Source of the DNA: Strigamia acuminata | Taxonomy: Eukaryota | NCBI GenBank assembly: GCA_949358305.1 | Contig: OX442314.1 | Location: forward strand, 27,032,001-27,096,000 | Direction: 5' to 3' | DNA: 64,000 nucleotides | Shown: piece by piece, positions 591-56,707 of the stretch | How positions within the stretch are numbered: the stretch's first letter is position 1 | Layout: each line of letters starts with the position of its first letter | The notes under the pieces: model-generated | Told to the model about the DNA's origin: nothing | What the model saw: only the letters and a program-made list of their open reading frames with translations | The model's database searches: none | Program-made: the position numbers and the translations under genes

Positions 591-3500
591 TTAGCGCTTT
601 GTTGCAGAAATTTTTTGAGGAACGGGCTGTACGATAATTCCAGATTGACATACAGTTGTTATTATCTGTTCGGAAGTAAATGAAAATTGTTGGAATAGAG
701 TGGTAAAATAAAGAAATAGTTGCATTCGGGCCAGTGGTTCTCCAATACATTGCCTCTTACCTGTATGAAAAAAAAACACTGCTCAGTAATAAAACAACTG
801 AGATTTGTAAATTATATTTGTTTACCAATGGAAAAAGGAATCAACTCCTCCACGTGTTTAACTTTGTTATCCTCACTAAGAAAGCGTTCTGGTTTGAAAA
901 GTTCGGGTTCTGGAAACAACTTTGGATCGTTATGAATTGACCATACATTGGCAAGTATAGTTGTCTTCTTTGGAACAAAATAACCAGCTAGAGTTGCATC
1001 TTCACTTGAACTAGAAATTAATATAGAATTCTATAGCAACATCTATTAAAAATTCAGAGGGGGCCAGTATGTGCCGCAACATAGAACTACCGGGTGGCCC
1101 ACATAAAAGAGGCCTGACAATGCGAGGAGGGTTACCACGGGAGTCTAAAGAAATGTATGTATTGTTCAATTAAATATATACAGACTATTAATCGTTAGTT
1201 GTGTGTAGTATTTGTTTCATTAAAGTTTCTGGTGCAGTTTTTACCGCTCTTTCGTTTGGTGTTTAGTTTTTGACGATCCGAGCCTGCGTTCTCGAGATAT
1301 TTGCGATTTTAATGAATTTGTGTCCCCATTCACCAGGTTTGATTGCACTAGTCATTCCTGAATTTCAGATTGTGGTACTTTTTGAATTTTTTCAGCTTGA
1401 CTTTGCAGGTTTTGTGCAATTTTGCTAGATTTTGTAAAAGTTTGCTAGATTATGTAAATTTTTGCAAAGTTTTGTAAAGTTTTGTTAGATTTTGTAAATT
1501 TTTGCTTGATTTTGTAAAATTTTGCTACATTTGAGAAATTTTATCTAAAGTAAAGTGGTATGGTACGAAAAGTACTGTATATCTGTACCAGTACCGCTGC
1601 AGAAATCCACACAATCTAAAATTCTGGTATGACTACAGTAGTGCAATCAAACTTGGCAAATTAGGACGAACATTTATTTAAAACGCAAATATCTTGAGAA
1701 TAAAGCTCGAATCGTTAAAAACTAAACACCAAACGAAAGAGCGGAAAAAACTGCACCAGAAACATTAATGAAACAATACTAACCGCCACTAATGATTAAT
1801 ATACAGTATATTTAATTGAACAATACATACATTTTTTTAGACTTCCGTGGTAACCCTCCTTGCATTGTCGGGTCGCTTTTATGTGGGCCACCCGGTACGT
1901 GGGGTGGGCGTTATTCATTCTGTTTTATTGTCATTTCAATTTCGACTTGTAATTAACTGTCACCAATTGGGACTGGCAAGAGCACAGGCAGGGAGTGTTG
2001 TTATTTTGAGTCACCTTGATCCGATAGGCCCCGGGGCCAAGATAATTCTCGATAATTCCACCGCTAGGTGGAGTTACGTAGGCTACCTTCGACCTGTATC
2101 CACTGTCTGATTCACCCATGCCGGGCATGCGTCGAGGCAGAGCGTAGAATAAAGGTTTTCACCATTCTACATCAACCAACCTCAGGGGTCGGCAACCTGC
2201 GGCTCTTTCGATGTCAAGATGCGGCTCTCTCAAGTTATGAGCCAGATTTAACCAAACTTTCAAAAGGCATGCAAGGCCAATGCTCCCATTGATGTAATTA
2301 ACTATTGTTCAATAATTATAGTTGTATTATTTTATTATTCCAGCAGAGCTAGCTAAAACACTTTAATATGTTTTGTGCGAAACATTTTTATGTTTTTATA
2401 TGAATAAATATTACTCCGTATTTCATATTTAAAGCTATTTATTTTAAATCAAAAATCAAATTTATATACCTAATCCTAATCAAATACCATAATATTGAAA
2501 CAAAAATGTTAGTGGCTCTTTAAAAACTGGGAAATTTTGTAAATTGTAACTTTTGGCTCTTCCGACCCCTGACATAACTCGTCCTTCTCCGTTGCGATTA
2601 TCCAACAGCGGGTTATTTCAGCACCATCTCTTGATGACAATTGTATTCCATCACGGCATTGTAAATTTCCAACAATTCGAATTGGTGCTGGTCACCATTA
2701 CCGTTTAGAAGATTGTCTTGTTAGACGTGGTTTTACGTCAAAAATATTTTTTATCAGAGGCGATGAGAGGGTGCCGAATCTGACTATGTTGAATAATTAA
2801 TATTGTTCAAGTCCAACATGGTTTAACTAGCCATTTGTTTAGCTATATTGTCTGTATTATTGCAACAACAGGTGGTGTCTAAATAGCGTTTGTTTTGAAC
2901 AAGTGAACAGTAGGTGCGTTCAATTTGCGAAAGGAAAGAAAAATCTTTCCTTTTCTTACTTTCGCAAAGGAAGAAAAAGTACTTTAGAATGAATGCACTT
3001 TTTTTGTTACTTTCTATTTGTTTGTCAATTCTAGTTTTAGCATGCTGTAATTCGATTTTAATCTGGTTTTTAGTAACTAACAAACGTTTTTTCGATTAAA
3101 ACGAATGTTTTTTCGGTAAAAACGAACATTTTTTGGTAAAAACTAACGTTTTTTCGATAAAAACGAACGTTTTTCCGGTAAAACGAACGTTTTTCCGGTA
3201 AAACGAACGTTTTTCCGGTAAAACGAACGTTTTTCTGGTAAAACGAACGTATTTCGTTAAAAACGAACGTTTTTTCGATAAAAACGAACGTTTTTTCAGT
3301 TATAACAATGTTTTATCATTACAACAAGTAATAAATCTTTACTTAATTGTTGGTTTGGCTAACAAATGACTAATGCGCATGCGCCGATCGCGAAAGTAAA
3401 ACTGAAAGGAAGAAAAGTAACCCAAACGCTACCTTTGGCTAAAGTGACTTTGGCCACTTTCCTTTCGGTAAAAATGACGTTTTTGACGTCACTTCCGGTG

Positions 3501-6500
3501 GCGAAAGTAACGAAAGGAAAGATTCTTCTTTCCTTTCGCAAATTGAACGCACCTAGTGTTTCTATGATGTTTAATCTACTATACTCACGTGTGAGGAGCA
3601 AGTAAAGGAAGTAGCCAGACCATTCTGCTTAGTTCCAGTAAAGTCGCTTCTGTATATGGCATTAACTTTTGATCTGACATTGATGGTTGTCTATCCGTTC
3701 CAATCACTTCGTCAATTTCCATTTGCACTTTTGCTTGCACGTGAGGGTATTTTACCATATACAATAGTAGGAATTCCAAACTCGTGCTTGTAGTGTCGCT
3801 TCCAGCAATAAACAATTCGCTCAATATTTTTGCCAGTTTCTTTTCTAGGAATGATAATAGATAAATAATAATACAGTTAGTTTCAATTTTAAAAAATTCT
3901 CAAATTCTCATATTCTCAAAAACTTCTCAAATTTGGATGAAAATTTAACTAAAAATTCCCAAATTTGGTGGTAATTCAACTATAAATTCTCAAATTTGGT
4001 GGTAATTCAACTATAAATTCTCAAATTTTGCTAGAAATTTAACTAAAAATTCTCAAATTTTATTTGAAATGTATAAAATAATTAGTTAAAATATTCCTTT
4101 GTAAATTTTGTGTCAAGGAACCTTTTGATGTGCTCGCTCTCAATTGAAAGTTTTGACGGGTTTTAACGGAATCGTAGGGTTTAATGAAGAAATGAACAAC
4201 TTTTTTGTCTGAGAGTAATTTGTAAATGTAGGAGTATTTACCATTAAAAATGGCGGTATTTGTATTCGGTTTCTCAGTTTCAGTTCTCCAAACATCAATA
4301 AAACTCTGTTGATTGTTTATGCCTTCGTGAATTTTGTCGTATTTTAGAACTTCGTCTAGGATCTTTCTGTACAGCAAAGCTCCTTTAACTCTGCACAAAT
4401 AAATGAAAAATGTCTTTAAAGTGCACTTAAGTTTAATGGCGTTTGGTACTGACGTCGGTTTTGTGATTCCAAGAAGTTTGACTATCCAGTCTGGCAGAAA
4501 TTCCGACCATTGGTCTATTCCTACCGAAGCTACAAGGTCATTGGATAACTGCATGAGTTGTTGAAAATCTTTATTCTCGTAGTCCATTCTTTCTCCGTAC
4601 ATGATTGTGCAAATTATATTAGTAATGCTTGTTCTAAGCATTTCTCGGAAGTAAGAAGGTTTTCCGTTCAAGCTTTTAATATTGTTTATTAAAAACTGTA
4701 ATTCATCCTAATAAAAGTAAAGAATAACTGTTGCAATTAATAAGATAATAAACTGGGCTTTGGGATTGTATTAATATACTTGAATTTTTGGTTCCAAACT
4801 TGCTTTACCCATCCCAAAGTTGCGCAGTGCAGTTAACGAGAAGCGTCGTAATTCTTGTCGAATCGCACCGCCACTTCCAAACATACCTGGAAAAAATTTA
4901 AAGCACTAGCAAAAATCACTAGTAAAAATCGTAGCAGGCGAATTCATAGTTATTTTGTGTAAACAACATTTTTAAACTGCTGTATGTAGGATTTGTTCTG
5001 AACTGACTTCAAACAATGGTGGTGGATTTAGTCTGTTTTAATTGCAGTGAGCATGCGCAAAACATTTAAACAACAAAAGATATTTAAATAAATGTTATTA
5101 CACATGCGTCTATGAATACGCTCAGTAAAAAATTAAATCACGAGTTGCATTCGAAAGCGTACTACCGGTAATATTCATCTCGATTTAATACATACCTTCT
5201 TGCGAGTCAAATGTCATAAGAATAGAAAAGTTGTGGGGTCTTTCTGTATAGTTGTCACTTAGTTGAAACATTTCTTTGATTAGTTTGAATGAGGATACAA
5301 CAACAACACGTTCATTTGCAATATAGATTCTGAAAACAGGGAAACGTACCCGATTATACATTTCAAAGCAGTTCCTTGTAGGACAACGAATTTACAATAG
5401 GATTCCAGTTCCAGGTTAGACAATTGAAACATGCCTGGACACTGGAGACCCAACAAAGTGTTGTATCGAACGCGAACTAATAGTTTGAGTTCGATACAAC
5501 ACTGCATACAACTCGAATTAAGTTCGTTAGTTCGCAAGCTAAGATCGCGAACTAGTTCACTTTTACAAGTGAATGCAAAAAACGAACTTAGTTCACTTTT
5601 AAGAGTGAACTTTAACGAAGTTTGCGTTCACCATGTTTGCAAAAACGTAACTTTTTCCATTGGTTTTAAACGTTTTGATGACATTTTCATCATCAAAACA
5701 TTCGTTTTGATTACTTTTTACAACGAAAAAGGCGAAATCAGCCGTTTTCGTCACTAAAATCAATGAAAACGACTGCTTTACTAAAAAAAAGTGTTTGTTT
5801 TTTTTCATCTGTAAACCACAAAACAAAAAAAAACATTTTAATTTTTTTAAAAAAAATTGGAAAAGTTGTCACGTTGTATTCGACTTTTTTAACAATGGTT
5901 TCGGAAATTTTGGGTTTCCAGGGATTGTAGTAATCATAAAATTGTGGTCCACAGACGCCGCACCTCTTAATACTTTGCCAGGGGTGGTAGCTAGGTAAAG
6001 ACAGCGTCTGTTTGTGAAATCTGTATTTATACAGCAAACCATCCCCAAACCATTTCCTGTATGTGTATCGGTCCACAACAATACATTAAAGGTTTCATGG
6101 ATCAATATACTTATCAAAAAGTATTGGAGGATTGTTATGCTTCCATTTGCAGATGATAAACTGCCTTTGACATGGATATTTCAGCAGGAAAATGATTCTA
6201 AACTTAAAGTCAAGTCATTTTCTCAGTTTTCCAAACCCATCACGTGTAGGTTTTGACTTGGCCTACACAATCACATACAAAATTTTGGTTATCCAACAAA
6301 ATATTGTAAAGTATTGTTCTTATAAACAATGATTTTCTGAAGAAACCGGTTTTTTGTGTGATTTTTTGGATGTGGTGCTAAGCTTTTTCTGCCGGCCCAA
6401 CTCACTTGAGGCAATTAGCGTGGTGGCCTAATACGAAGTGTGGGACTTGATCACTCCAGAATATTGTCAAGAACTAATAGAACCCATGCCAGACCATATT

Positions 6501-9462: not shown

Positions 9463-11316
9463 CAGTGTTGTATCGAACTAGAACTATTAGTTCGCGTTCG
9501 CGAACTTAGTTCTTAGTTCGCGAACTAAGAACGCGAACTAGTTCGCGATTCTTAAAGAACGAAAAAAACGAACGAAGTTCGTTTTTTGGACGCGAACTAC
9601 GTTCTAGTTCGTTAATTAGTTCGTTCCTCCAACGTTGTATTGCTCGGCCAATCATTGACGACTTCTGTAGTATAAGACTAGTGTAATTTCTGTAAATAAA
9701 ATAACTTGTGACATTCGACCCTGATAAGCTGTTGCGTATTTCATTGTTTAGTCGGATTTGGTGGATTTCCAACAATAGTCTACAATTCTATTTTGTTTCG
9801 TATTCGTTTTTTCCGAGGTCTGTGATCGTAATAATATGGAAGCTGAAGCTCAGAAGTTAATCGAAGCACGCAATAAACCCGTATACGACGGTAAGTTTTT
9901 TCAATGCATAAGTTTCAATGGGAAAAACTTTTCTGCAAAATGTGCTATTTGCGGATTGTCGATTTCGGTAGCAGCTGGAAGCACTGCTAATTTAAAACGG
10001 CATATCACAACAAAGCATGGGACTCTATTAGCGGAATTTATCGAACACACGAAATCAGCTACACCTGCGCGAAAACGAAAAGCAGTTGAAATTGATCCGG
10101 AATCGCACGGCAGCCAGAGAACTCTGAATTTCCCCATTTCAGATAGAATTTCCAGCAGTCAAAAGAATTGTGAAGAAGCTGTCATTCGTTTCATAATCAT
10201 GCGTTGGCAACCTTTGCGATTAGTTGAAGATGATGAGTTTCGACGACTTCTTAAAACATTTAATCCGACGTATAAACCAATGAATCGTGTAACACTTGTG
10301 AAACGAATTTCCGAAAAGTATGATCAAATATTTGACCAGTTGAAAATTAATCTCGAAGCGCAAGATTATGTATGTACGACAGCAGACATCTGGACCTCTC
10401 ATCGTAAAAGCTTTTTGGGGATGACCGTTCACTGGTTAAACGAAAATCTCGAAAGGAAATCGGCGGCAATTGCAGTTCAACGATTTACTGGATCACACAA
10501 CTACCTTGAAATAGCTAGAAAATTGGTTTCAATTCACAACAAATACGGCCTGGATCCATCGAAAGTTACAAAAACAATAACCGACAATGCCAGTAACTTT
10601 GTGAAGGCATTTAGGTTGTTTGAACACACCGAGTCCGATGCTGAAGCTGAAGAAATTGAAGATGAAGATGAACCGATAATTCTTCAATCGGTTGGAGATA
10701 TCTTGACTGGGCCAGAATCTATAACTGAAGTAGACAGTGAATTCGATTTCGATTTAGAATTACCATCGCATCTCCGATGCAGTGCACATTCGATTAACTT
10801 AATCGCTACAGCGGATGCTGCAACGGCCTTAAAAACGAACGTATACAAGAGGCGTTACAGCAGTGCAATGTCTAAATTCCAATCGATTTGCAACAAGATG
10901 AATCGTAGCGCACAGGTTGCAGAAAAACTACATGAAGTTTGTCATCGTTTCATTCCAACTCCTGGTATAACAAGATGGAATTCGTATTTCGACAGCATTT
11001 CTGTGCTGATCTCGCTGGAATCCAAGTTACCGAATATCTGTCAAATTACCAGTGTTGATGTTTTCACAAATCCTGAATTAGATTTTCTGAAAAGTTGGTT
11101 GCGAGTCATGCGTCCTGTTGCGACTGCGCTAGATCTAATGCAAGGGGAAAATGCGTATTTAGGAATGCTGTTGCCCACTTTAAAAGGCATCCAAGTTAAT
11201 CTTTCAAATTTGCAGAATTCTTTACATTCCAATGATGTAATTTTACATCTTGTTGCAGCTGTTTCGAAAGGACTGACTAAGCGAATATTCATCATACTGA
11301 GTATGATGAATATTCG
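9463..11316 (+). mobile_element. 3'-truncated hAT DNA transposon
   Basis: Left TIR CAGTGTTGTATCGAAC, dense GTTCG/CGAAC subterminal repeats to ~9625, transposase ORF; no right TIR seen. Confidence 0.8.
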
Positions 11317-11332
11317 GTATTCAGTGATTTGA
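9836..11332 (+). CDS. hAT transposase with BED zinc finger, C-terminally truncated
   Basis: BED finger CAIC...LKRHITTKH; TADIWTS, ITDNASN, RCSAH and TRWNS motifs. Similarity stops at ~11283; no catalytic-Glu/dimerisation region. Confidence 0.85.
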   Translation: MEAEAQKLIEARNKPVYDGKFFQCISFNGKNFSAKCAICGLSISVAAGSTANLKRHITTKHGTLLAEFIEHTKSATPARKRKAVEIDPESHGSQRTLNFPISDRISSSQKNCEEAVIRFIIMRWQPLRLVEDDEFRRLLKTFNPTYKPMNRVTLVKRISEKYDQIFDQLKINLEAQDYVCTTADIWTSHRKSFLGMTVHWLNENLERKSAAIAVQRFTGSHNYLEIARKLVSIHNKYGLDPSKVTKTITDNASNFVKAFRLFEHTESDAEAEEIEDEDEPIILQSVGDILTGPESITEVDSEFDFDLELPSHLRCSAHSINLIATADAATALKTNVYKRRYSSAMSKFQSICNKMNRSAQVAEKLHEVCHRFIPTPGITRWNSYFDSISVLISLESKLPNICQITSVDVFTNPELDFLKSWLRVMRPVATALDLMQGENAYLGMLLPTLKGIQVNLSNLQNSLHSNDVILHLVAAVSKGLTKRIFIILSMMNIRYSVI

Positions 11333-12139: not shown

Positions 12140-13725
12140 TGTGACGATTGACTTGGCGAGATACAAATTGCTTAACAGTTAACGTAGGAACTCGTGTGAA
12201 AGTGTAAAAGTACGGAGGCTTGTGATTTCTCAAATCATATGACAGTTTATTACAAGTCGGGAATTATATAAAACCTATGCCTACAAATGGCTAAATAACT
12301 TAGGTTAAATATACAATGGGTTGGCAAAAGCCCTGAAATAATATCACTTGCGGTTTTCAGTCTCGTAATAAGAATGTGTAACTTTCTTATTACGGTGACG
12401 TAAAAGATGTCGTCTGAGTATGGTTCGAGCTTCCAAATGGTCCTGGATTGATTCTAAAATGGTGTGTAATGGTTAGGCTTGGGTGTGTTATATCCGAGAG
12501 GTGCGGTTGTCTTTGGCACAATCATCACACGTATAATTATTGTTAATAATTATACAGCGCGATCATAAGAATGATGAAACAATCGGAATAAATATTCATG
12601 TAAATTCCATTGAATTAAACATGAGTATTGTGTTCACAAAGCTGGATAAATAACTATAAAAATAAAGAAATAATTAAAATAGCGCCGAGCTATTTTTTGC
12701 CCCGAGTGCAATCAACATTTAAGTCAGACTTAAATGTTCCATCAAACCAACAACGAAATGAATCGAAGTATTTCGCAGGAAAGGTTATCCATCGCCGGGA
12801 AATTACTCCACTCGGTTCTGGCTGGCGGGAGAGTAACCGGGAAATTACTCCGCGTCGATTACTCTGATAATGCGTCTGTGAAATATAAATACTCCACTCT
12901 AGATTCTACATTACCAATGCGTCTGTGAATTTTACTCCACTCTAGATTCTACATTCTACAACGGAATGTTGGCATGAAGCTGGAGGGAGTGCGTCTGTGG
13001 GTTGTACCCCACTCTAGATACTACACTTAAATGTGTCTGTGAATTACTCACTCTAGTTACTACATTTCTACAACGGAATGTTGGCATGAAGAGGCGGGCA
13101 GTGTGTCTGTGAGTCTTCTACCCACTCTAGATACTTACACTAAATACAAAGTATTTCTACAACGGATTGTCGGAACGCAGAGAAGTATAATATGTGCTCA
13201 AGTAATATCAGTATCAAACAAAAACAGAACAAGAGCGAGCTATATCCGTTTTGCAGGGGGATATATACTCGGTGAGGAGAATAGCTGTTCAGTGATCCAA
13301 TGGGATCACTGGGCAGTCAAATCCATCCAATCCCAGATCATAGGAAGTGGATACTCAGGACATAGTCTTCTACTAGGTCCACTACAGGAACTGGATACGC
13401 AGGGCACACTTTGGATTAAGTCCCTTTGACTATAATCCAAAAGGAGTCCAACTCACAGTGGGTGATGAAGGGTGACTTCACCAGGTGTAAAGTTTGCACA
13501 TAATTCAATAGAATTATGTGACAAATAAATCAACTAGTATTTAAACATCCAAAAAGTATTCAAAAGTGTCCAAAGTTGCAGTGGAATAAAATATAAATAG
13601 TAATTTATATTTTATTCACTCAAAAATTGTCGAAATTTGAAATTACCGCTAAAACGCATCAGCGCCATCTATTGGTGAAATAATCGTCCTATATTATCAA
13701 AGTGTATGACAGTGTAACCGTCACA
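12140..13725 (-). repeat. 3' LTR of element A (1586 bp)
   Basis: Direct repeat of 38488-39132 + 53102-54042; adjacent PPT AAGGGGGACT on the minus strand. Confidence 0.95.
12868..13141 (-). repeat. Array of five bulged-hairpin units in the A/B LTR (also in the other three A/B LTR copies)
   Basis: Plus-strand units RTGYGTCTGTG-n7-14-CACTCTAGWTWCT(T)ACAY at ~12870, 12917, 12989, 13031, 13101. Confidence 0.8.
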
Positions 13726-14388: not shown

Positions 14389-16044
14389 TTAGTCCAACTC
14401 TTCATCCTCAATGAATCCTTCCATGGACGTAACAACTTCCGAGGTGGCTGCGGGTGGAGAGTTAAGTTGAATAGTTACCAATTCCGGTACTTCGTCCGGT
14501 TCAACGTCATGGTTCAGTGGATCCAGGAGCATTCTGTGTTGCTCCTCGGTGAATACTTCCAGGGGATCAGGCCCTCCTAACGGAATGGTGTTAGCGCTGG
14601 TTGGCTCGGAAAAAACCAAGTGATGGTCGGGTAAGCCAGAGTGCCATCCCTCACGAATCAACGGGTGAGCTGCTGCTGAGACCTGCTGCAAAATCTTACA
14701 CCAAATAAAAGAGCGAGTTTGAAAAGATTCCGGCCGAGATGGATGAAAAATCCATTGGATCACGGCCAGCGGCACGCTTAAATCTGGAATTCGGTCATTC
14801 GAAATAGACACACTAATACGCTTAGCTGCTTCCAATAAAATTGGGAAATAATGTTCCACTTCCGCCTTAGTTTGTTCTGTGAGTGACATGCTTGGTCTCG
14901 GCATATATGGATGAACCAGTAAAATGACCGGTTCAGCAGCGTCGCTTACTTCTGGGAGCGGAATAGTCGCTACAATCATGTTGTTAGCCGATGTTCCCTC
15001 TGGAAAAGCGGCGGTTTGCAGACCAGAATCGGATGCCACCGGCGGAGAATCAGACGCAGTAACTGACGTTGGAAGGTTTTCCGCCGAGACAACTGGAATT
15101 CCATCAATCGCAGGGGTGGGAGTTTCCGGCTCGCGTTGTGGCTCCGTAAATCCTCCTCGTGGAGTCGAGGTGCTGGACATTTGCGCCGGGTCTACATAAA
15201 TAGCCTGCTCCGGGCCCTGATGGATGAGGCCACATTCGCGGCACATCGCCCAATTGCGTGCTGTTGGCGTACTTAGCCCTTTGACGATGAAAGGAAGAAT
15301 TTCCTCGTTCCACATGCTCGATATGGCAACGCGCTTACCACCGTGACAGTTCACGCAGACTACGGCGTGAATGCCGGACAGAAGGGAGGATAACCACCCG
15401 CATCCTGCGCATAAAGGGCAGAACATGAGCTTCGACTTCGGCATGATGTTGGTTCCCAAGGCGGCAGCTTCCATATCGCGAAATACATGTTCTCGCCGTT
15501 GCTTCCGATAACTCGGTAAGTTGAGCTCCGATAATGAGCGAGCTTGCGATGTTGGGCGGGTCAACGCTTCGGATGAAGATGCCAACGTGGACTTGGTGGG
15601 TCCCTTGGTTTTGCCTGTCTTGCCTCGACTAGCGGTATCGCGAGGATTTCGTGGTCGGGCAAACTGTCTGCTGGTAGTCTGAGGTGGGGCTTCTTCATAA
15701 GATTCTTCTTCTTGTGAGAAGTCGTCTTGGCGCCGTCTCCTTGAAGCAGAACGGGAGTATTGTGACGAGTCGTCAGAAAAATCCCAATTCGGAGTCTCGT
15801 GGGGCGCATCATAGGTTACGACACGCTGACTAGCTTGACGGCCTCTGGAAGGACGCGAGTCGGTCGGGCTAACACCCATGGCGGTCCTAATTCGTGGTGG
15901 TACGAGATCCGGATTATCTCGGGCCCAGTTGGCGACGAGCTCGGGGTCAGAGGAGGGATTAACAAAGCGATAATCCGTCTCTTCCGACTTTTCTGGATCC
16001 CAATGCACGTACTGTCGCTTGCTAGCACGACCTCGGCGACTCAT
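14389..16044 (-). CDS. Element A ORF3: 551-aa uncharacterised Cys/His-domain protein in the env position
   Basis: ATG at 16044, 5 nt after candidate acceptor TTTTCTTGAAG; homologous to ORF3 of B and C; no signal peptide or TM seen. Confidence 0.85.
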   Translation of the reverse strand: MSRRGRASKRQYVHWDPEKSEETDYRFVNPSSDPELVANWARDNPDLVPPRIRTAMGVSPTDSRPSRGRQASQRVVTYDAPHETPNWDFSDDSSQYSRSASRRRRQDDFSQEEESYEEAPPQTTSRQFARPRNPRDTASRGKTGKTKGPTKSTLASSSEALTRPTSQARSLSELNLPSYRKQRREHVFRDMEAAALGTNIMPKSKLMFCPLCAGCGWLSSLLSGIHAVVCVNCHGGKRVAISSMWNEEILPFIVKGLSTPTARNWAMCRECGLIHQGPEQAIYVDPAQMSSTSTPRGGFTEPQREPETPTPAIDGIPVVSAENLPTSVTASDSPPVASDSGLQTAAFPEGTSANNMIVATIPLPEVSDAAEPVILLVHPYMPRPSMSLTEQTKAEVEHYFPILLEAAKRISVSISNDRIPDLSVPLAVIQWIFHPSRPESFQTRSFIWCKILQQVSAAAHPLIREGWHSGLPDHHLVFSEPTSANTIPLGGPDPLEVFTEEQHRMLLDPLNHDVEPDEVPELVTIQLNSPPAATSEVVTSMEGFIEDEELD

Positions 16045-17155
16045 TGCATCTTCAAGAAAAATATAAATTTTATTTGAGAACATGAATCAAACCGTCGGTA
16101 ATTAATTTAATTTCAAATTAAATTAATTGTCGACCAACAACTGGATTAATTTCACAATTAATTCTTAAGTTCCTTTTGTTAGCGGGTTTCCTTCATTTGT
16201 TGAATAATTATTAAAATTAATAATTATTCTTGACTCGGTAGATAATTTCATCTTATCTTTTAAAACAATATCGTTGACAAAATATTCAAATTAGTGTTTA
16301 TTAAATAAAATAAACCTAATTTTTGCATCTAAACGACATAATAACTAAAAAACCTGTCAAAATATTGAAAAATATTTTTGCAATATTTTTAGTATCTGAC
16401 AATATACATGATTTTTAACTGTACGAATAACTCTATAATTTGTCCGAGTAAAAATCTATCACCGACATCTGGTGGCGTTTGTTATTATCATACACGTGAC
16501 TTGTTAACACCAATTTCAAAGGAATTTTAAGAGACATTTTATGTTCATAAAATAAACACTTACTAACTAGGTGGAGTCCTAGAAGGGTATATTTGGCTAG
16601 TTTAACGTCTAGCTTCACGTATTTGCGAGGGCTGCCCGATTCCGGCGACGTTGGCCGATAAAAACGTTGTGCGGCGCGTGCGAATTCTAAGTCTGCCGTA
16701 ATGAACGCTTAACCAAAATAAATGTTGTCAATTAATGTCAAAATATTATAAATTTTGACAAAATATTGCTTAAATATTTACCGGGAATTCACTTAGTGAG
16801 TTCGTGAAAGGCTTACTCGCGATTTGTCCACGAGATGGTTTCGATAATCAACGTCGTGTCGATAATTTCTGAATTTGAACTGATATTCGTCAAATGAAAA
16901 AATCAGTAAAATAAACGATAAGTGTTCAAAATCATCTAGATTTTAACTCACTAAATTTCAGCGAAAATCCGTTAAAGCGTCGAAGAGTTGAGAATAATCC
17001 TTGGTTTCAGTCCAGTGTAAAACTTGGTGAACAAGTGAGTGATAATCTCAGACCAGGGGTTAAGGGGAGTTTCGAGGAGTAATTTGATTGGTTTGTAATT
17101 ACTCATCTCGAAGTTTCTATTAACCCAAAGGGGGAAACATAGTTTCAAGTAAATG

Positions 17156-18745
17156 TGTGACGATTACCTTCTGGAGATAGCAATTGCTAAACTAAAGTGT
17201 GAACTATCTGTGTGAAAATGTAAAATATGCAAACCTGATGTTTTCTCAAAGCATATAACATTTATTCCGGTTTGAACCTTATATAAATACTATGCCTACA
17301 AGTGGCTAAAATGACGATAAGTTAAACTATACAGTTATTTGGCAAAAGCCCTGAAATAATATCATTTGAAGGCTTCAGTCATGCAATAAGAATTTGTAAC
17401 GGTCTTATTGCTGTGACGTAAAAGATGTCATCTATGAATGGCTTTGGCTTCTAAATGGTCCGGGGTTTGGTTCTAAAAGGCGTGTAAATGGTTAGGCTGG
17501 GTGGGTTATATCCGAGAGGTGCGGTTGACTTTTCTGTATCGTCACACACATCGCATCGCAGATAATTATTGTAATCAATAATTATTGCGAGATGTAACAA
17601 TGTGAGAATAAATATTCATATTAATTCTATGGAAGTAATCATGATATTTTAGAGTCACAAACTTAACTAAAACTATGAAAATAAGTAAAATATATTAAAA
17701 TAGCGCCGAGCTATTTTTTGCCCCGAGTGCAATCAACATCTAAGTTAGACTTAAATGTTCCGTCAAACCAATAACGAATTGAATCGAAATATCTCGCAGG
17801 AAAGGTTATCCATCGCCGGGAAATTACTCCACTCGGTCCTGGCTGGCGGGAGAGTAACCGGGAAATTACTCCGCGTCGATCACTCTGATAATGCGTCTGT
17901 GAAATATAAATACTCCACTCTAGATTCTACATTACCAATGCGTCTGTGAATTTTACTCCACTCTAGATTCTGCACTCTACAACGGAATGTTGGCATGAAG
18001 CTGGAGGGAGTGTGTCTGTGGGTTGTACCCCACTCTAGATACTACACTTAAATGTGTCTGTGAATTACTCACTCTAGTTACTACATTTCTACAACGGAAT
18101 GTTGGCATGAAGAGGCGGGCAGTGTGTCTGTGAGTCTTCTACCCACTCTAGATACTTACACTAAATACAAAGTATTTCTACAACGGATTGTCGGAACGCA
18201 GAGAAGTATAATATGTGCTCAAGTAATATCAGTATCAAACAAAAACAGAACAAGAGCGAGCTATATCCGTTTTACAGGGGGATATATACTCGGTGAGGAG
18301 AATAGCTGTTCAGTGATCCAATGGGATCACTGGGCAGTCAAATCCATCCAATCCCAGATCACAGGAAGTGGATACTCAGGACATAGTCTTCTACTAGGTC
18401 CACTACAGGAACTGGATACACAGGACACACTTTGGATTAAGTCCTTTTGACTATAATCCAAAAGGAGTCCAACTCACAGTGGGTGATGGGGGGTGACTTC
18501 ACCAGGTGTAGAGTTTGCACATAATTCAATAGAATTATGTGACAAATAAATCAACTAGTATTTAAACATCCAAAAGTATTTAAAAGTGTCTAAAGTTGCA
18601 GTGGAATAAAATATAAATAGTAATTTATATTTTATTCACTCAAAAATTGTCGAAATTTGAAATTACCGCTAAAACGTATCAGCGCCATCTATTGGTGAAG
18701 TAATCGTCCTATACTAACAAAGTGTATGACAGTGTAACCGTCACA
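17156..18745 (-). repeat. 3' LTR of element B
   Basis: Matches 29536-31125 with no difference noticed. Confidence 0.95.
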
Positions 18746-19402: not shown

Positions 19403-21058
19403 CTAGTCCAACTCTTCATCCTCAATAAATCCTTCCATGGATGTGACAACTTCCGAGACGGCTGCGGGTGGAGAATTAAGTTGAATAGCTACCAATTCCG
19501 GTACTACATCGGGCTCAACGTCATGGGCCAGGGGATTCAGGAGCATTCTGTGTTGTTCCTCGGTGAATACTTCCAGGGGATCAGGCCCTCCTAACGGAAT
19601 GGTGTTAGCGCTGGTTGGCTCGGAGAAAACCAAGTGATGGTCGGGTAAGCCAGAGTGCCATCCCTCACGAATCAATGGGTGTGCTGCTGCTGAGACCTGT
19701 TGCAAAATCTTACACCAAATAAAAGAGCGGGTTTGAAAAGATTCCGGCCGGGATGGATGGAAAATCCATTGGATCACGGCCAGTGGCACGCTCAAATCTG
19801 GAATTCGGTCGTTTGAAATCGACACACTAATACGCTTAGCTGCTTCCAATAAAATTGGGAAATAATGTTCCACTTCCGCCTTAGTTTGCTCCGTGAGTGA
19901 CATGTCTGGTCTCGGCATATATGGGTGGACCAGTAAAATAACCGGTTCAGCAGCGTGGCTTACTTCTGGGAGCGGAATAGTCGCTACAATCATGTTGTTA
20001 GTCGATGTTCCCTCTGGAGAAGCGGCGGCTTGTGGACCAGAATCGGATGCAACCGGCGGAGAATCAGACGCAGTAACTGACGTTGGAAGGTTTTCCGCCG
20101 AGACAACTGGAGTTCCATCAATCGCAGGGGTGGGAGTTTCCGGCTCGCGTTGTGGCTCTGTAAATCCTCCTCGTGGAGTCGAGGTGCTGGACATTTGCGC
20201 CGGGTCTACATAAATAGCCTGCTCTGGGCCCTGGTGGATGAGGCCACATTCACGACACATCGCCCAATTGCGTGCTGTCGGCGTACTTAGCCCCTTGACG
20301 ATAAATGGAAGAATTTCTTCATTCCACATGCTGGATATGGCAACGCGCTTACCACCGTGACAGTTCACGCAGACTACGGCGTGAATGCCGGATAACAAGG
20401 ACGACAACCATCCGCATCCTGCGCATAATGGGCAGAACATAAGCTTCGATTTTGGCATGATGTTAGTGCCCAAGGCGGCAGCTTCCATATCTCGAAATAC
20501 ATGTTCTCTTCGCTGCTTACGGTAACTTGGCAAATTTAGCTCTGATATCGAGCGAGCCTGCGAGGTTGGGCGAGTCAACGCTTCGGATGAAGATGTCAGC
20601 GTGGACTTGGTGGGTCCTTTGGGCTTGCTGGTTTTGCCTCGACTAGCGGTATCGCGAGGATTTCGTGGTCGGGCAAACTGCCTGCTGGTGGTCTGAGGTG
20701 GAGCTTCTTCAACCGATTCTTCTTCTTGCGAGAAGTCATCTTGGCGCCGTCTCCGTGAAGCAGAACGGGAGTATTGTGACGAGTCGTCAGAAAAATCCCA
20801 ATTCGGAGTCTCGTGAGGCGCATCATAGGTTACGACGCGCTGACTAGCTTGACGGCCTCTGGAAGGACGCGAGTCGTTCGGACTAACGCCCATGGCGCTC
20901 CTAATTCGTGGCGGTACGAGATCCGGGTTATCACGGGCCCAGTTGGCGACGAGCTCGGGGTCAGAGGAGGGATTAACAAAGCGATAATCCGTCTCTTCCG
21001 ACTCTTCTGGATCCCAATGTACGTATTGTCGCTTGCTAGCACGACCTCGGCGACTCAT
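19403..21058 (-). CDS. Element B ORF3, 551 aa
   Basis: Nearly identical protein to A ORF3 despite many synonymous differences. Confidence 0.85.
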   Translation of the reverse strand: MSRRGRASKRQYVHWDPEESEETDYRFVNPSSDPELVANWARDNPDLVPPRIRSAMGVSPNDSRPSRGRQASQRVVTYDAPHETPNWDFSDDSSQYSRSASRRRRQDDFSQEEESVEEAPPQTTSRQFARPRNPRDTASRGKTSKPKGPTKSTLTSSSEALTRPTSQARSISELNLPSYRKQRREHVFRDMEAAALGTNIMPKSKLMFCPLCAGCGWLSSLLSGIHAVVCVNCHGGKRVAISSMWNEEILPFIVKGLSTPTARNWAMCRECGLIHQGPEQAIYVDPAQMSSTSTPRGGFTEPQREPETPTPAIDGTPVVSAENLPTSVTASDSPPVASDSGPQAAASPEGTSTNNMIVATIPLPEVSHAAEPVILLVHPYMPRPDMSLTEQTKAEVEHYFPILLEAAKRISVSISNDRIPDLSVPLAVIQWIFHPSRPESFQTRSFIWCKILQQVSAAAHPLIREGWHSGLPDHHLVFSEPTSANTIPLGGPDPLEVFTEEQHRMLLNPLAHDVEPDVVPELVAIQLNSPPAAVSEVVTSMEGFIEDEELD

Positions 21059-22361
21059 TGCATCTTCAAGAAAATATAAATTTTATTTGAGAACATGAAT
21101 CGAAACGTCGGCAACTAATTTAATTTAAATTAAACTAATTGTCGACCTAAAATCGGGTTAAATTCCATAATTAATTCTTAAGTTCCCTTTGTTAGCGTGT
21201 TTCCTTCATTTGTCGAATAATTATTAAAATTAATAATTATTCTTGACTTGGTAGATAATTTCATCTTATCCTTTAAAAACAATATTGTTGACAAAATATT
21301 CAATTTAGCGTTTATTAGATGAAATAAACCTAATTTTGGCACCTAAACGACATAATAACTAAAAAACCTGTCAAAATATTAAAAAATATTTTTGCAGGTT
21401 TTTAGTACCTGACAATAGTCACTTTTCATGATTTTAACTGTACGAATAATTCTATAATTCGTCCGAGTAAATAATCCATCACCGACATCTGGTGGCGTTT
21501 GTCACTATCATACACGTGACTTGTTAACACATGTATGCTCACCAATTTCCAAGGAACTTAAGAGATATTTTATCTTTCATAAAATAAACACTTACTAATT
21601 AGGTGCAGTCCTAAAAGGGTATATTTGGCTAGTTTAACGTCTAGCTTCACGTATTTGCGAGGGCTGCTCGGTTCCGGCGACGTTGGCCGATAAAAACGTT
21701 GTGCGGCGCGTGCGAACTCTAAGTCTGCCGTAATGGACGCTTAACCAAAATAAATGTCGTCAATTAATGTCAAAATATTATTAATTTTGACAAAATATTG
21801 CTTAAATATTTACCGGAAAATCACGTAGTGAATTCGCGGGAAGGTTCCTTGCGATTCTGCCACGAAATAGTTTCGATAATCAGCGTTGTGTCGATAATTT
21901 CTGAATTTGAACTGATATTCGTCAAATGAAAAAATCAGTAAAATAAACGATAAGTGTTCAAAATCATCTAGATTTTAACTCACTAAATTTCAGCGAAAAT
22001 CCGTTAAAGCGTCGAAGAGTCGAGAATAATCCTTGATTTCAGTCCAGTACAAAACTTGGCGAACAAGTGAGTGATAATCTCAAACCAGGGGTTAAGGGGA
22101 GTTTCGAGGAGTAATTTGATTGGTTTGTAATTACTCATCTCGAAGTTTCTATTAACCCAAAGGGGGAAACACAGTTTCAAGTAAATGTTTACACGTAGAT
22201 TAATTTAAATACGATCGGCCGTGTAAAAATAACTCAAACATTTGTTAAATTTTATTCACAAAAAAAAAAAAATGTTTTTAATTAATAAAATCTAACAATC
22301 CTTCGTGAATATGATTGGGAATATTTATTTTAAAATAAAATATTTTCAATATATTGTGTCT

Positions 22362-29535: not shown

Positions 29536-31125
29536 TGTGACGATTACCTTCTGGAGATAGCAATTGCTAAACTAAAGTGTGAACTATCTGTGTGAAAATG
29601 TAAAATATGCAAACCTGATGTTTTCTCAAAGCATATAACATTTATTCCGGTTTGAACCTTATATAAATACTATGCCTACAAGTGGCTAAAATGACGATAA
29701 GTTAAACTATACAGTTATTTGGCAAAAGCCCTGAAATAATATCATTTGAAGGCTTCAGTCATGCAATAAGAATTTGTAACGGTCTTATTGCTGTGACGTA
29801 AAAGATGTCATCTATGAATGGCTTTGGCTTCTAAATGGTCCGGGGTTTGGTTCTAAAAGGCGTGTAAATGGTTAGGCTGGGTGGGTTATATCCGAGAGGT
29901 GCGGTTGACTTTTCTGTATCGTCACACACATCGCATCGCAGATAATTATTGTAATCAATAATTATTGCGAGATGTAACAATGTGAGAATAAATATTCATA
30001 TTAATTCTATGGAAGTAATCATGATATTTTAGAGTCACAAACTTAACTAAAACTATGAAAATAAGTAAAATATATTAAAATAGCGCCGAGCTATTTTTTG
30101 CCCCGAGTGCAATCAACATCTAAGTTAGACTTAAATGTTCCGTCAAACCAATAACGAATTGAATCGAAATATCTCGCAGGAAAGGTTATCCATCGCCGGG
30201 AAATTACTCCACTCGGTCCTGGCTGGCGGGAGAGTAACCGGGAAATTACTCCGCGTCGATCACTCTGATAATGCGTCTGTGAAATATAAATACTCCACTC
30301 TAGATTCTACATTACCAATGCGTCTGTGAATTTTACTCCACTCTAGATTCTGCACTCTACAACGGAATGTTGGCATGAAGCTGGAGGGAGTGTGTCTGTG
30401 GGTTGTACCCCACTCTAGATACTACACTTAAATGTGTCTGTGAATTACTCACTCTAGTTACTACATTTCTACAACGGAATGTTGGCATGAAGAGGCGGGC
30501 AGTGTGTCTGTGAGTCTTCTACCCACTCTAGATACTTACACTAAATACAAAGTATTTCTACAACGGATTGTCGGAACGCAGAGAAGTATAATATGTGCTC
30601 AAGTAATATCAGTATCAAACAAAAACAGAACAAGAGCGAGCTATATCCGTTTTACAGGGGGATATATACTCGGTGAGGAGAATAGCTGTTCAGTGATCCA
30701 ATGGGATCACTGGGCAGTCAAATCCATCCAATCCCAGATCACAGGAAGTGGATACTCAGGACATAGTCTTCTACTAGGTCCACTACAGGAACTGGATACA
30801 CAGGACACACTTTGGATTAAGTCCTTTTGACTATAATCCAAAAGGAGTCCAACTCACAGTGGGTGATGGGGGGTGACTTCACCAGGTGTAGAGTTTGCAC
30901 ATAATTCAATAGAATTATGTGACAAATAAATCAACTAGTATTTAAACATCCAAAAGTATTTAAAAGTGTCTAAAGTTGCAGTGGAATAAAATATAAATAG
31001 TAATTTATATTTTATTCACTCAAAAATTGTCGAAATTTGAAATTACCGCTAAAACGTATCAGCGCCATCTATTGGTGAAGTAATCGTCCTATACTAACAA
31101 AGTGTATGACAGTGTAACCGTCACA
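29536..31125 (-). repeat. 5' LTR of element B
   Basis: Direct repeat of 17156-18745, adjacent to the PBS. Confidence 0.95.
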
Positions 31126-38487: not shown

Positions 38488-39132
38488 TGTGACGATTGAC
38501 TTGGCGAGATACAAATTGCTTAACAGTTAACGTAGGAACTCGTGTGAAAGTGTAAAAGTACGGAGGCTTGTGATTTCTCAAATCATATGACAGTTTATTA
38601 CAAGTCGGGAATTATATAAAACCTATGCCTACAAATGGCTAAATAACTTAGGTTAAATATACAATGGGTTGGCAAAAGCCCTGAAATAATATCACTTGCG
38701 GTTTTCAGTCTCGTAATAAGAATGTGTAACTTTCTTATTACGGTGACGTAAAAGATGTCGTCTGAGTATGGTTCGAGCTTCCAAATGGTCCTGGATTGAT
38801 TCTAAAATGGTGTGTAATGGTTAGGCTTGGGTGTGTTATATCCGAGAGGTGCGGTTGTCTTTGGCACAATCATCACACGTATAATTATTGTTAATAATTA
38901 TACAGCGCGATCATAAGAATGATGAAACAATCGGAATAAATATTCATGTAAATTCCATTGAATTAAACATGAGTATTGTGTTCACAAAGCTGGATAAATA
39001 ACTATAAAAATAAAGAAATAATTAAAATAGCGCCGAGCTATTTTTTGCCCCGAGTGCAATCAACATTTAAGTCAGACTTAAATGTTCCATCAAACCAACA
39101 ACGAAATGAATCGAAGTATTTCGCAGGAAAGG
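38488..39132 (-). repeat. 5' LTR of element A, first part (split by C)
   Basis: Matches 12140-12784. Confidence 0.95.
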
Positions 39133-41395: not shown

Positions 41396-43072
41396 TCACT
41401 TGACTTCTTCTTCATCAGACTCCGATCCTTCACTCTCTTTCTTAAGAGTCTCACTGGACTCACCGACTTCGGACTTTTCTAGGGGAAGAAATTCCGCTGG
41501 TCTTCGGTCGATGACGAAATTGGGTTCTTCACCTATATCTTCTGCGGGTGGAGATTTCGGCGCGTACTCCGGAGACCTTGGTTCATATTCTGGAGTTTTC
41601 TCAACTAACTCATAACTTTCTTCAATAGCCTTCTTCGAAGCGTCGTATATCTCCGCAATGCAGGGGAGTCCGTAGAACCATGAAGGGTTTATTAATCCTT
41701 TTCCGTCGGTGTTGACTCTGTCAATTAACAGTGTCCATATGTGCTCCAGCACAGCAAAAGATTCGCCTCGATTGGCGTTAAATATCAATTTCATCACATG
41801 GACAGCATAATTGATATTCGAGGGATCGGTAGAGTCTGAGCGCATTTGTTCCGTGATTTTCTCGGCAATTCTAAAAAGCGTCGGAAAATAGTAGCTCACC
41901 TCGTATTCGAATAGATGCGCTATTTTCGCTCCTGGTGGAGGGAAAAAGGGTTCCACAAGAAGTTCATTTTCGGCTTCTTTTTCGTTCTCCTTGGATACCG
42001 TTTGACATCCTTTATCGATGACTGTCGTACTCTGTGGTTTTCGGGAACTCTCTAGAGCTTCTGGCGGAATTCTCAGATCTTGCATTTCCCTTCCTAGTGG
42101 AGTGGTTATGGCGTTCAAGAACTCCGGGCTGATGTACGGCGATCTTCCGTCACTGGAGAGGACAATTTTACACTCCGGGCAAGTTGCCCACAACCTGGCC
42201 GGGGGAGGGTGAATTCCCATGACCACAAACGGCAGAAAGCTGGGGCGCCAAGGTTGGCCTTTGGGCCGCTTCTTTGTGCCCTCGCAATTGGAACATTGCG
42301 CCAGGTGGCCTCCGGTTCCCGATCCCGAGACCCACCCGACGGCGGAACAAAAAGGACATGGCACTTCGTCCTTCGAGAGTACCATATCATCATGTGGTTT
42401 TCCGTTCTCTTTATCTTGTTTACACTGTTCTCGTCTTTTCTGGATCTGACGAACTTTATTTGCCAACTTTTGGCGATCTGACCATGCGCTGGTATTTGAC
42501 CTATTCCTAGGTTGGTCGGACCTTCGGTAGGAGGAATACGACCTTTTTTCCCGGTCTCGGTCTGGTGAATCGTTAAATCTAACGTATTCTCTTTTTGGAC
42601 GCTCTTGGCCAGTACAAGAGGAAGGTGTAGCGTCTTCCGAATTTCGGCGGCGTTTAGCTTCCATTGGTGGGGATTTCCTTCTTCGTTCGGGCGACTTGAC
42701 TCGGTTGTACACAATTTCCACCTTTCGCGGTTTACTGGTACTTGGCTGGTTTTTTGCAATTGGCGGATTATTTCTGGCGAAATCATCCGCTTTTATCTTT
42801 GGAATAACAAATGGCTTCGCCGTTGATTCTTTTTTGGCCGGTTCCTCCTGTAACGTGGGGGTTCCGGGTGGACCAAGCTCAGCGGGGAGCAATTCGGGAT
42901 GTTGGCGAGCCCAACTCAAAATATCCCAGCCTCTGGCGTTGATAATCACGGGTGTTTTGGGACACCCTTCTACGAATACGGCAGCGGCCGAAGGAGGTGC
43001 CGTTACTTCTTCATCGGAGGAAGAGGATTCGACCAACACGTATTTTCTCTTTTTTTCGATCTTTTTTCCCAT
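41396..43072 (-). CDS. Element C ORF3, 558 aa, divergent homolog of A/B ORF3
   Basis: ATG at 43072, 5 nt after candidate acceptor TTTTCTCTAG; shares WARxxPxLxP, the Cys/His block and the EVxxYFP...GLP block with A/B. Confidence 0.85.
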   Translation of the reverse strand: MGKKIEKKRKYVLVESSSSDEEVTAPPSAAAVFVEGCPKTPVIINARGWDILSWARQHPELLPAELGPPGTPTLQEEPAKKESTAKPFVIPKIKADDFARNNPPIAKNQPSTSKPRKVEIVYNRVKSPERRRKSPPMEAKRRRNSEDATPSSCTGQERPKREYVRFNDSPDRDREKRSYSSYRRSDQPRNRSNTSAWSDRQKLANKVRQIQKRREQCKQDKENGKPHDDMVLSKDEVPCPFCSAVGWVSGSGTGGHLAQCSNCEGTKKRPKGQPWRPSFLPFVVMGIHPPPARLWATCPECKIVLSSDGRSPYISPEFLNAITTPLGREMQDLRIPPEALESSRKPQSTTVIDKGCQTVSKENEKEAENELLVEPFFPPPGAKIAHLFEYEVSYYFPTLFRIAEKITEQMRSDSTDPSNINYAVHVMKLIFNANRGESFAVLEHIWTLLIDRVNTDGKGLINPSWFYGLPCIAEIYDASKKAIEESYELVEKTPEYEPRSPEYAPKSPPAEDIGEEPNFVIDRRPAEFLPLEKSEVGESSETLKKESEGSESDEEEVK

Positions 43073-51321: not shown

Positions 51322-51339
51322 ATCTCGGTGGGACCTCCA
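51322..51339 (-). promoter_or_regulatory. Primer binding site of C, tRNA-Gln type
   Basis: Same 18-mer as in A and B. Confidence 0.85.
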
Positions 51340-51341
51340 CG

Positions 51342-53097: not shown

Positions 53098-53101
53098 AAG
53101 G

Positions 53102-54042
53102 TTATCCATCGCCGGGAAATTACTCCACTCGGTTCTGGCTGGCGGGAGAGTAACCGGGAAATTACTCCGCGTCGATTACTCTGATAATGCGTCTGTGAAA
53201 TATAAATACTCCACTCTAGATTCTACATTACCAATGCGTCTGTGAATTTTACTCCACTCTAGATTCTACATTCTACAACGGAATGTTGGCATGAAGCTGG
53301 AGGGAGTGCGTCTGTGGGTTGTACCCCACTCTAGATACTACACTTAAATGTGTCTGTGAATTACTCACTCTAGTTACTACATTTCTACAACGGAATGTTG
53401 GCATGAAGAGGCGGGCAGTGTGTCTGTGAGTCTTCTACCCACTCTAGATACTTACACTAAATACAAAGTATTTCTACAACGGATTGTCGGAACGCAGAGA
53501 AGTATAATATGTGCTCAAGTAATATCAGTATCAAACAAAAACAGAACAAGAGCGAGCTATATCCGTTTTGCAGGGGGATATATACTCGGTGAGGAGAATA
53601 GCTGTTCAGTGATCCAATGGGATCACTGGGCAGTCAAATCCATCCAATCCCAGATCATAGGAAGTGGATACTCAGGACATAGTCTTCTACTAGGTCCACT
53701 ACAGGAACTGGATACGCAGGGCACACTTTGGATTAAGTCCCTTTGACTATAATCCAAAAGGAGTCCAACTCACAGTGGGTGATGAAGGGTGACTTCACCA
53801 GGTGTAAAGTTTGCACATAATTCAATAGAATTATGTGACAAATAAATCAACTAGTATTTAAACATCCAAAAAGTATTCAAAAGTGTCCAAAGTTGCAGTG
53901 GAATAAAATATAAATAGTAATTTATATTTTATTCACTCAAAAATTGTCGAAATTTGAAATTACCGCTAAAACGCATCAGCGCCATCTATTGGTGAAATAA
54001 TCGTCCTATATTATCAAAGTGTATGACAGTGTAACCGTCACA
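53102..54042 (-). repeat. 5' LTR of element A, second part
   Basis: Matches 12785-13725. Confidence 0.95.
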
Positions 54043-56705: not shown

Positions 56706-56707
56706 CT

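What the first reader, a model, noticed from the sequence alone, without database searches (positions are those of the whole stretch)
12868..13141. Five covarying purine-bulged hairpins in the A/B LTR
Seen on the sense strand: RUGU-AGWA-UCU-AGA-GUG-[RGUA-containing loop]-CAC-AGA-C-RCAY, five times with small variations. Outer pairs covary: units 1, 2 and 4 are ATG...CAT and units 3 and 5 are GTG...CAC. C/A mismatches on the plus strand become G-U pairs only on the minus (sense) strand. The array lies downstream of a candidate TATA (~13260) and is interleaved with CTACAACGGA repeats. Inference: an RNA response element, with the same copy number as the unrelated array in D.
Basis: partly seen in the sequence, partly recalled or inferred. 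Interest (0 to 1): 0.75.

Follow-up and report, generated by a model that had tools for sequence, protein, structure and literature searches.

The report
Retrotransposon LTR five-hairpin RNA array
A young jumping gene, likely from a centipede-like animal, carries five repeated bulged hairpin motifs in its terminal repeat; their base pairs are kept through mutation, and they likely form an RNA landing pad for the element's own extra cysteine-rich protein, as the HIV Rev system does, though no binding or RNA data show this yet.

Summary
Five units sit at 12870-13140 on the minus (sense) strand and recur in all four A/B LTR copies (20 of 20 model hits). Stems keep pairing in 96 of 97 cells, three pairs change on both sides, the AGA and C bulges never vary, and loops run 7-14 nt. 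The element is a young ~14-kb Ty3/gypsy retrotransposon. By promoter and poly(A) motifs shared with sister family D, the array lies about 100-370 nt into a predicted ~1-kb R region. ORF3 is not Env. It is a conserved basic-helix/Cys6 protein under purifying selection, with homologues found only in centipede (Strigamia) gene models. Best reading (0.4): a Rev/Rex/CERV-like response element for ORF3. Against it: no RNA data, no binding test, the five-hairpin fold lies 22 kcal/mol above the predicted minimum, the covariation rests on few events, and A/B ORF3 has no export-signal match. The claimed copy-number match with D was not found, and a three-unit variant exists as DNA. Verdict: new variant of a known kind, with a testable cis-element candidate.

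The parts
12140..13725 (-). 3' LTR of element A (TGT..ACA, 4-bp target duplication ACAT); identical to the split 5' LTR at 53098-54042 plus 38488-39132
13101..13140 (-). hairpin unit h1; its foot overlaps the best 5' splice-site-like sequence
13031..13065 (-). hairpin unit h2 (7-nt loop region; one A-A mismatch)
12989..13026 (-). hairpin unit h3 (most stable alone, -12.0 kcal/mol)
12917..12954 (-). hairpin unit h4
12870..12911 (-). hairpin unit h5 (best populated in transcript context, inner pairs 0.85-0.96)
13131..13141 (-). 5' splice-site-like AGT|GTAAGTAT, highest score of 111 GT sites between predicted start and gag ATG (scored on the B copy, 30539); use not shown
13160..13172 (-). CTACAACGGA repeat 1: on the sense strand a possible 4-bp hairpin with one G-U (by eye; not the predicted minimum); also a Myb-like YAACKG site (motif recalled)
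13071..13083 (-). CTACAACGGA repeat 2: small 4-bp hairpin / Myb-like site
12959..12971 (-). CTACAACGGA repeat 3: small 4-bp hairpin / Myb-like site
13083..13100 (-). pyrimidine-rich spacer 1, predicted to pair with the 5' arm of h1 and displace it
12972..12988 (-). pyrimidine-rich spacer 2, predicted to pair with the 5' arm of h4
12830..12865 (-). downstream hairpin topped by GGAG-UAAU-UUCC; the A/B difference at 12860 gives a G-U pair; a second GGAGTAATTTCC copy at 12809-12798
13260..13267 (-). TATA-like box, aligned to TATATAAA of D; start predicted near 13236
12246..12251 (-). AATAAA about 100 nt from the LTR end, present at the same place in A, B and D; predicts R of about 1 kb
14389..16044 (-). 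ORF3 of A (551 aa; basic N-terminus, basic helix plus six cysteines, helical domain, acidic tail); candidate ligand
17891..18161 (-). array copy in B 3' LTR
30271..30541 (-). array copy in B 5' LTR
53187..53457 (-). array copy in A 5' LTR
19403..21058 (-). ORF3 of B (96% identical to A)
41396..43072 (-). ORF3 of D (28% identical to A; same cysteines); the D LTR lacks this array

Best explanation
The array is five copies of a bulged hairpin motif in the LTR of a Ty3/gypsy element, predicted to lie in the transcribed R region, and it likely acts as a multi-site RNA element bound by the element's ORF3 protein to protect and export unspliced genomic RNA, as Rev/Rex and Cer1 CERV do. Shown: the five units, pair-preserving variation, fixed bulges, strong A/B conservation, and an intact ORF3 under purifying selection. 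Inferred: that the units are transcribed (motifs only); that they fold as drawn (probably needing a protein to beat the competing spacer pairings); that ORF3 is the ligand through its basic helix and Cys6 domain; that the outcome is export or splicing inhibition. One concrete route, also inferred: binding to h1 would mask the splice-donor-like site at 13138, whose use with the acceptor-like sequence before the gag ATG would remove the primer-binding site.
For: Pairing kept in 96 of 97 cells; 3 pairs change on both sides; slid controls pair 19-60%. 8 G-U and no A-C among 63 modelled sense-strand pairs. All 3 A/B differences inside the array fall in the outer stem and keep pairing; chance 0.017 that three random transitions all land in stems and keep pairing. 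Spacing between GTG and CAC varies 7-14 nt, which suits an RNA loop better than two DNA half-sites. The three 200-nt windows from 13382 to 12783 are 98-99.5% identical between A and B, against 75-85% for the rest of the LTR downstream and 85.5-96% for ORF3. A and D LTRs align over promoter and pre-poly(A) blocks but not between them, and D has a 28%-identical ORF3 and no such unit, which fits family-specific protein/RNA pairs. ORF3: 86 synonymous against 20 non-synonymous codon differences in 551 codons; no hydrophobic stretch above 1.55 on a 19-residue window; invariant RR, four cysteines invariant in 6 of 6 and two more in the 5 sequences that reach them. [quoted passage not shown] RexRE lies in the LTR (PMC12789967).
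Against: Start and poly(A) sites rest on motifs alone. Enforcing all five hairpins costs 22 kcal/mol (-49.8 against -71.8); over 12 folding settings h1 has probability 0.00, h4 inner pairs 0.00-0.25, and the h3 outer stem 0.00. Single units fold little better than shuffles (z +0.13 to -1.99), and the array windows (z -2.85 to +0.42) are less stable than many other LTR windows (to -4.1, both strands). The changes are few events among duplicated units; given that a transition hits a stem, three keeping pairs has chance 0.18, and three random transitions break no pair half the time (0.51). The A/B identity step could be recombination, not selection. No NES-like match in A or B ORF3 (4 in D). ORF3 matches no family above cut-off and its models are poor (pLDDT 40.9 and 37.6). 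The D LTR has no GTRAG donor and no AG before its gag ATG, so the donor-masking route is not general. An element in R would be on spliced and unspliced RNAs alike.
Confidence: 0.4

Rival explanations
1. An RNA array bound by host factors (CTE-like export, or U1/splicing and poly(A) control needed because the 5' LTR also carries AATAAA about 1 kb after the start); ORF3 does something else.
For: Same RNA evidence. The best donor-like site of 111 is in h1 and a GTGAGT is in h2. CTE binds host NXF1 with no viral protein (PMC12789967).
Against: A host ligand should favour a motif shared with D; the model finds none there. No Rfam family reached its gathering score (6 weak matches).
Confidence: 0.2
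2. A Gag nucleocapsid site for packaging or dimerisation, or an aid to strand transfer across the long R; the UCUAGA palindrome in 4 of 5 units could pair between genomes.
For: Gag has a CCHC knuckle; purine-rich unpaired bases; palindrome seen directly.
Against: In R it would also be on any 3'-coterminal RNA, a poor packaging label (inference); the palindrome is A/U-rich and broken in h2.
Confidence: 0.12
3. A TAR-like element: ORF3 binds the nascent hairpins and boosts transcription elongation from the LTR.
For: Promoter-proximal, sense-specific, in predicted R, where lentiviral TAR lies (PMC12789967).
Against: The first unit starts about 97 nt after the predicted start and the array runs to about +367; TAR is a single cap-proximal hairpin (recalled).
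Confidence: 0.1
4. DNA repeats: a downstream enhancer (three Myb-like CAACGG sites, two kB-like sites) or a VANC-type target array for a DNA-binding ORF3.
For: Three same-orientation YAACKG sites lie after the TATA box in both A and D. VANC targets form tandem repeats that differ between related elements (PMC5735166 abstract). Sirevirus LTRs hold symmetric repeats (PMC2829016 abstract).
Against: Does not explain pair-preserving changes, G-U on one strand only, or 7-14 nt spacing. It may still hold for the CAACGG repeats alone.
Confidence: 0.1
5. No function: one chance hairpin amplified by template slippage in an LTR that is rich in inverted repeats.
For: 112-nt and 43-nt tandem periods; variants with fewer units; many perfect inverted repeats elsewhere in the LTR.
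Against: Loops have diverged in length and sequence while bulges and pairing have not; highest A/B conservation of the LTR.
Confidence: 0.07

Closest known systems
Cer1 / CERV of C. elegans (PMC10309623; abstract, passages, section 15 read)
   Same: [quoted passage not shown]
   Different: No Caenorhabditis protein among the 4 profile hits (whether CERV is in that library was not checked). CERV is made by splicing and shares its start with Gag; ORF3 here has its own ATG behind an acceptor-like sequence. The passages read name no cis-element for CERV ('response element', 'stem-loop', 'cis-acting': 0 occurrences).
HTLV-1 Rex/RexRE, MMTV Rem/RmRE, HIV Rev/RRE (PMC12789967; passages and section 23 part 1 of 2 read)
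   Same: Structured RNA in or by the LTR paired with an element-encoded basic protein; multiple docking sites.
   Different: Those are Retroviridae and single folded domains; this is a Metaviridae-type element with five separate repeated hairpins and a 551-aa Cys6 protein; binding, export signal and CRM1 use untested or unmatched.
MPMV constitutive transport element (same review)
   Same: Structured RNA near the LTR on all viral RNAs.
   Different: One 234-nt stem-loop that binds host NXF1; no Rfam match here.
VANDAL/VANC anti-silencing arrays (PMC5735166; abstract read)
   Same: Element-encoded extra protein with family-specific tandem target repeats.
   Different: DNA transposons, DNA targets; here the repeats show RNA-type pairing.
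Sirevirus LTR repeated motifs (PMC2829016; abstract read)
   Same: Symmetric repeats in a long LTR.
   Different: Copia, plants, upstream of the promoter, CpG-rich; here downstream of the TATA box with fixed bulges.

Membership tests
Ty3/gypsy (Metaviridae) LTR retrotransposon | pol order protease-RT-RNase H-integrase | tested here: met
   in all three pol ORFs scanned
Ty3/gypsy (Metaviridae) LTR retrotransposon | TG..CA LTRs, primer-binding site, polypurine tract, target duplication | tested here: met
   4-bp duplications; PBS identity as tRNA-Gln is recalled
Errantivirus-like (env-bearing) | ORF3 with signal peptide and membrane anchor | tested here: not met
   basic N-terminus, top hydropathy 1.55 and 0.95, no Pfam Env match
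Rev/Rex-type response element | structured on the sense RNA | tested here: inconclusive
   pair conservation for; competing folds against
Rev/Rex-type response element | lies within the transcript | tested here: inconclusive
   downstream of a TATA box shared with D; ends not mapped
Rev/Rex-type response element | bound specifically by an element-encoded protein | not testable with these tools
   no protein-RNA tool
Rev/Rex-type response element | partner has an arginine-rich motif | tested here: inconclusive
   invariant RR in a predicted helix; no 12-residue window with 6 or more K/R in A or B
Rev/Rex-type response element | partner has a leucine-rich export signal | tested here: inconclusive
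   simple pattern: 0 matches in A and B, 4 in D
Rev/Rex-type response element | needed for export of unspliced RNA | not testable with these tools
   bench test
CERV family | sequence or fold homology to CERV | tested here: inconclusive
   profile search gave 4 hits, none from Caenorhabditis; no direct comparison; models too poor
Any Rfam family | score at gathering threshold | tested here: not met
   0 of 6 matches reach it; best E 0.038 is Ocean-VII over h1 at 17.6 of 53.5 bits
Standard kink-turn (consensus recalled) | 3-nt bulge followed by tandem G-A, A-G pairs | tested here: not met
   by eye on the units: the AGA bulge is followed by G-C, U-A pairs

The most novel reading that the evidence does not exclude
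A myriapod Ty3/gypsy lineage has independently built a complex-retrovirus control system: a previously undescribed Cys6 accessory protein and a modular, copy-number-variable RNA response element in a ~1-kb R region, switched by competing spacer pairings and diverging family by family (A/B versus D) with its protein. It would be a defined cis-element for a Rev-like protein outside the Retroviridae.
Probability: 0.3. Interest if true: 0.82.

Novelty: new variant of a known kind. Interest (0 to 1): 0.6.

Why it matters
Most extra ORFs of LTR retrotransposons have no known function (stated in PMC10309623), and for the one shown to drive genomic RNA export, CERV, the passages read name no RNA target. 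Here a 35-42 nt unit with fixed bulges and swappable stems sits in the same element as a candidate partner, and a sister family with a different LTR block and a 28%-identical partner gives a built-in specificity control. That makes the question directly testable, and a cognate pair would be a new compact protein-RNA tag. If it fails, the array is still a clear case of repeated structured RNA in a very long R region.

Tried and rejected
Expression: no RNA holder listed (2 runs, neither on record as RNA); this is no evidence either way. The drop in X2 depth over 12935-13093 was not used. Variant-by-variant pairing across family copies could not be obtained; one search lists only 40 of 175 differences over the LTR, 7 of them in the array, 5 of these from one contig in X2 (one breaks an outer pair of h2). 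No host genome is held. Relatives' DNA: none by pol or ORF3 in viral contigs or by ORF3 in metagenomes; 7 PBS-pattern loci and 5 unit-pattern loci had no tblastn match to the element's proteins and only 3 short LTR matches (E 0.02-0.96). ORF3: single-sequence search 0 hits among 7994 candidates; atlas hits under 0.9; fold searches uninformative (best Z 6.9, rmsd 3.5, 91 aligned, helical; no viral match at E 0.001); solved-structure search best E 0.22; P0123 dropped as a repeat-protein false hit. A homo-oligomer prediction was not run (no verdict). The sigma-70 scan does not apply to an animal promoter. D array: seeded repeats, self-BLAST, k-mer counts and the covariance model found only short degenerate motifs in 4-6 copies and a two-copy 74-nt period. 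Rejected: ORF3 as Env; kink-turn; miRNA precursors (units of 35-42 nt are too short; from general knowledge); Troyka (3-bp duplications and CG ends, abstract). Earlier findings: three look-ups returned nothing. No supplements were read.

Full report
Context. The window holds nested Ty3/gypsy elements on the minus strand. Element B sits inside A between pol and ORF3, with identical LTRs at 31125-29536 and 18745-17156. All three have 4-bp target duplications, gag with a CCHC knuckle, an overlapping pol in the order protease-RT-RNase H-integrase, and a third ORF of about 550 aa without a Pfam family above cut-off. The D LTRs differ at 1 of 1756 sites. The elements are young. Very high summed contig depth in two DNA runs suggests a repeated family, but depth is no copy number.

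The observation. Five units occur in each of the four A/B LTR copies, and a covariance model built from seven distinct units hits those 20 and nothing else with E below 2 in the window (the 20 match by construction). Each unit has a continuous 3' strand and a 5' strand with purine-rich insertions, closed by a loop region of 7-14 nt. On the seven units 96 of 97 cells pair, 3 of 14 pairs change on both sides, 8 never vary, and slid controls pair 19-60%. RNAalifold gives the same fold. Eight of 63 modelled pairs in A are G-U and none is A-C. A and B differ at 7 of 501 sites from the TATA region to 12770; 3 lie in the array, all in outer stems and all pair-keeping, and a fourth gives a G-U pair in the hairpin at 12830-12865. 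The caveat is independence: the array grew by 112-nt and 43-nt duplications, so the ATG/GTG pattern is roughly one event, and the chance figures run from 0.017 to 0.51 depending on the null.

Folding is the weak point. Alone, h1 and h3 fold as drawn, h4 and h5 give the inner stems, and h2 lacks the middle stem; z-scores are +0.13 to -1.99. The whole array scores z -2.15 on the sense strand and -0.82 on the other, but through different pairings: two pyrimidine-rich spacers capture the 5' arms of h1 and h4. Enforcing five hairpins costs 22 kcal/mol, and over 12 settings only h5 (in transcript context) and the inner stems of h2 and h3 are well populated. Other LTR windows fold better than the array, on both strands. 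Either a protein or non-canonical pairs stabilise the units, or the spacers make a switch, or the fold is less real than the alignment suggests.

Position. A and D LTRs align over a CTCF-like site, two ETS-like sites (motif names recalled), the TATA box and about 80 nt beyond, and again before an AATAAA about 100 nt from the end; between these blocks they do not align. This predicts a start near 13236 and an R region of about 1 kb, with the array at about +97 to +367. This is motif inference only. The best donor-like site of 111 GT sites between that start and the gag ATG is at the foot of h1, and the gag ATG of A and B follows a pyrimidine tract and AG; D shows neither. The promoter-plus-array block is 98-99.5% identical between A and B, while the LTR downstream of it is 75-85%; selection and recombination both could give this step.

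Copy number. Contigs of both DNA runs (at most 2 samples, 1 study) join 12975 to 13089, and one 284-nt contig carries both sides (138 and 108 places), a three-unit form. Joins from about 12910 to 13064 give a two-unit form with shorter support (29-49 letters on the short side) (laid at 80% likeness). In D, I found only short degenerate motifs and a two-copy 74-nt period.

ORF3. A and B differ at 86 synonymous and 20 non-synonymous codons of 551; D is 28% identical. There is no membrane anchor. A profile search of 1.84 billion representatives gave 4 hits: three Strigamia maritima gene models and one false repeat hit; a further search added a fourth Strigamia model, P0125. In three of these models the domain follows pol sequence, and P0125 matches D ORF3 over 266 residues at 30%. 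The shared core is a basic helix with invariant RR followed by CxxC pairs. The host is therefore likely a myriapod or other arthropod (inference; not determined). Structure models were poor and fold searches uninformative.

Mechanism. Repeated hairpins with fixed bulges, exchangeable stems and free loops are what a protein-binding RNA array looks like (general knowledge). The block is family-specific, as ORF3 is, which points to an element-encoded ligand rather than a host one. The closest functional precedent is CERV of the gypsy element Cer1, whose cysteines and an arginine are needed for genomic RNA export (PMC10309623: abstract, passages and section 15 read). RexRE shows that an LTR-borne element can serve this role (PMC12789967: passages and section 23 part 1 read). 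I give this 0.4; host-factor RNA element 0.2; Gag site 0.12; TAR-like 0.1; DNA array 0.1; neutral 0.07. That the units act as RNA at all I put near 0.8.

Novelty. No Rfam family reaches threshold. Searches of the held library for such an array or such an element (listings only unless named) showed no description, but most subscription journals and repeat databases are outside that library, and no supplements were read. Abstracts only were read for PMC5735166, PMC2829016, PMC8579622 and PMC12440569, and abstract with opening text for PMC6673714 (a Strigamia Copia family with a captured domain, a different case). It works like a Rev/Rex-type element if the inference holds; membership is untested on binding and export. 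Verdict: real feature, new variant of a known kind, interest 0.6.

Noticed in passing
window 13584-13617 and 40713-40738 (minus): Both families have a second AATAAA in U3 buried in a perfect 11-15 bp hairpin, which could hide it during read-through of the 3' LTR.
   Followed up: partly
window 13662-13675, 40786-40799, 16462-16475, 21482-21495, 43134-43147 (minus): CTCF-like motifs (consensus recalled) near the 5' end of each LTR and again upstream of each ORF3, hinting at insulators or an internal promoter; donor-like and acceptor-like sites flank the ORF3 leaders.
   Followed up: partly
window 12140-12780 versus 17156-17800: A and B LTRs drop from about 98% to about 75-85% identity in their 3' third, possibly a recombination point within the long R.
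   Followed up: partly
window 39133-53097: Element D starts TA rather than TG at the 5' end of its LTR and is inserted in A's 5' LTR just 3' of the array; its post-TATA block holds many different hairpins, one at -32 kcal/mol (39858-39916).
   Followed up: partly
window 56290-64000 (plus): A fourth gypsy element with a short LTR-like start, a different PBS (tRNA-Pro-like, recalled), and a gag region split by an in-frame stop at 58451-58453 between 570-aa and 412-aa frames: read-through or a break.
   Followed up: no
window 4060-4707 and 54043-55630: Cytochrome P450-like exon fragments occur at several places (648-1013, 3555-3870, 4237-4671 match 54043-55627), so the nest sits in or near a P450 gene cluster.
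   Followed up: no
window 9779-11332 (plus); 1088-1897; 2906-3560: A BED zinc-finger transposase-like ORF, and two fold-back elements with long terminal inverted repeats and internal 20-nt tandem arrays.
   Followed up: no
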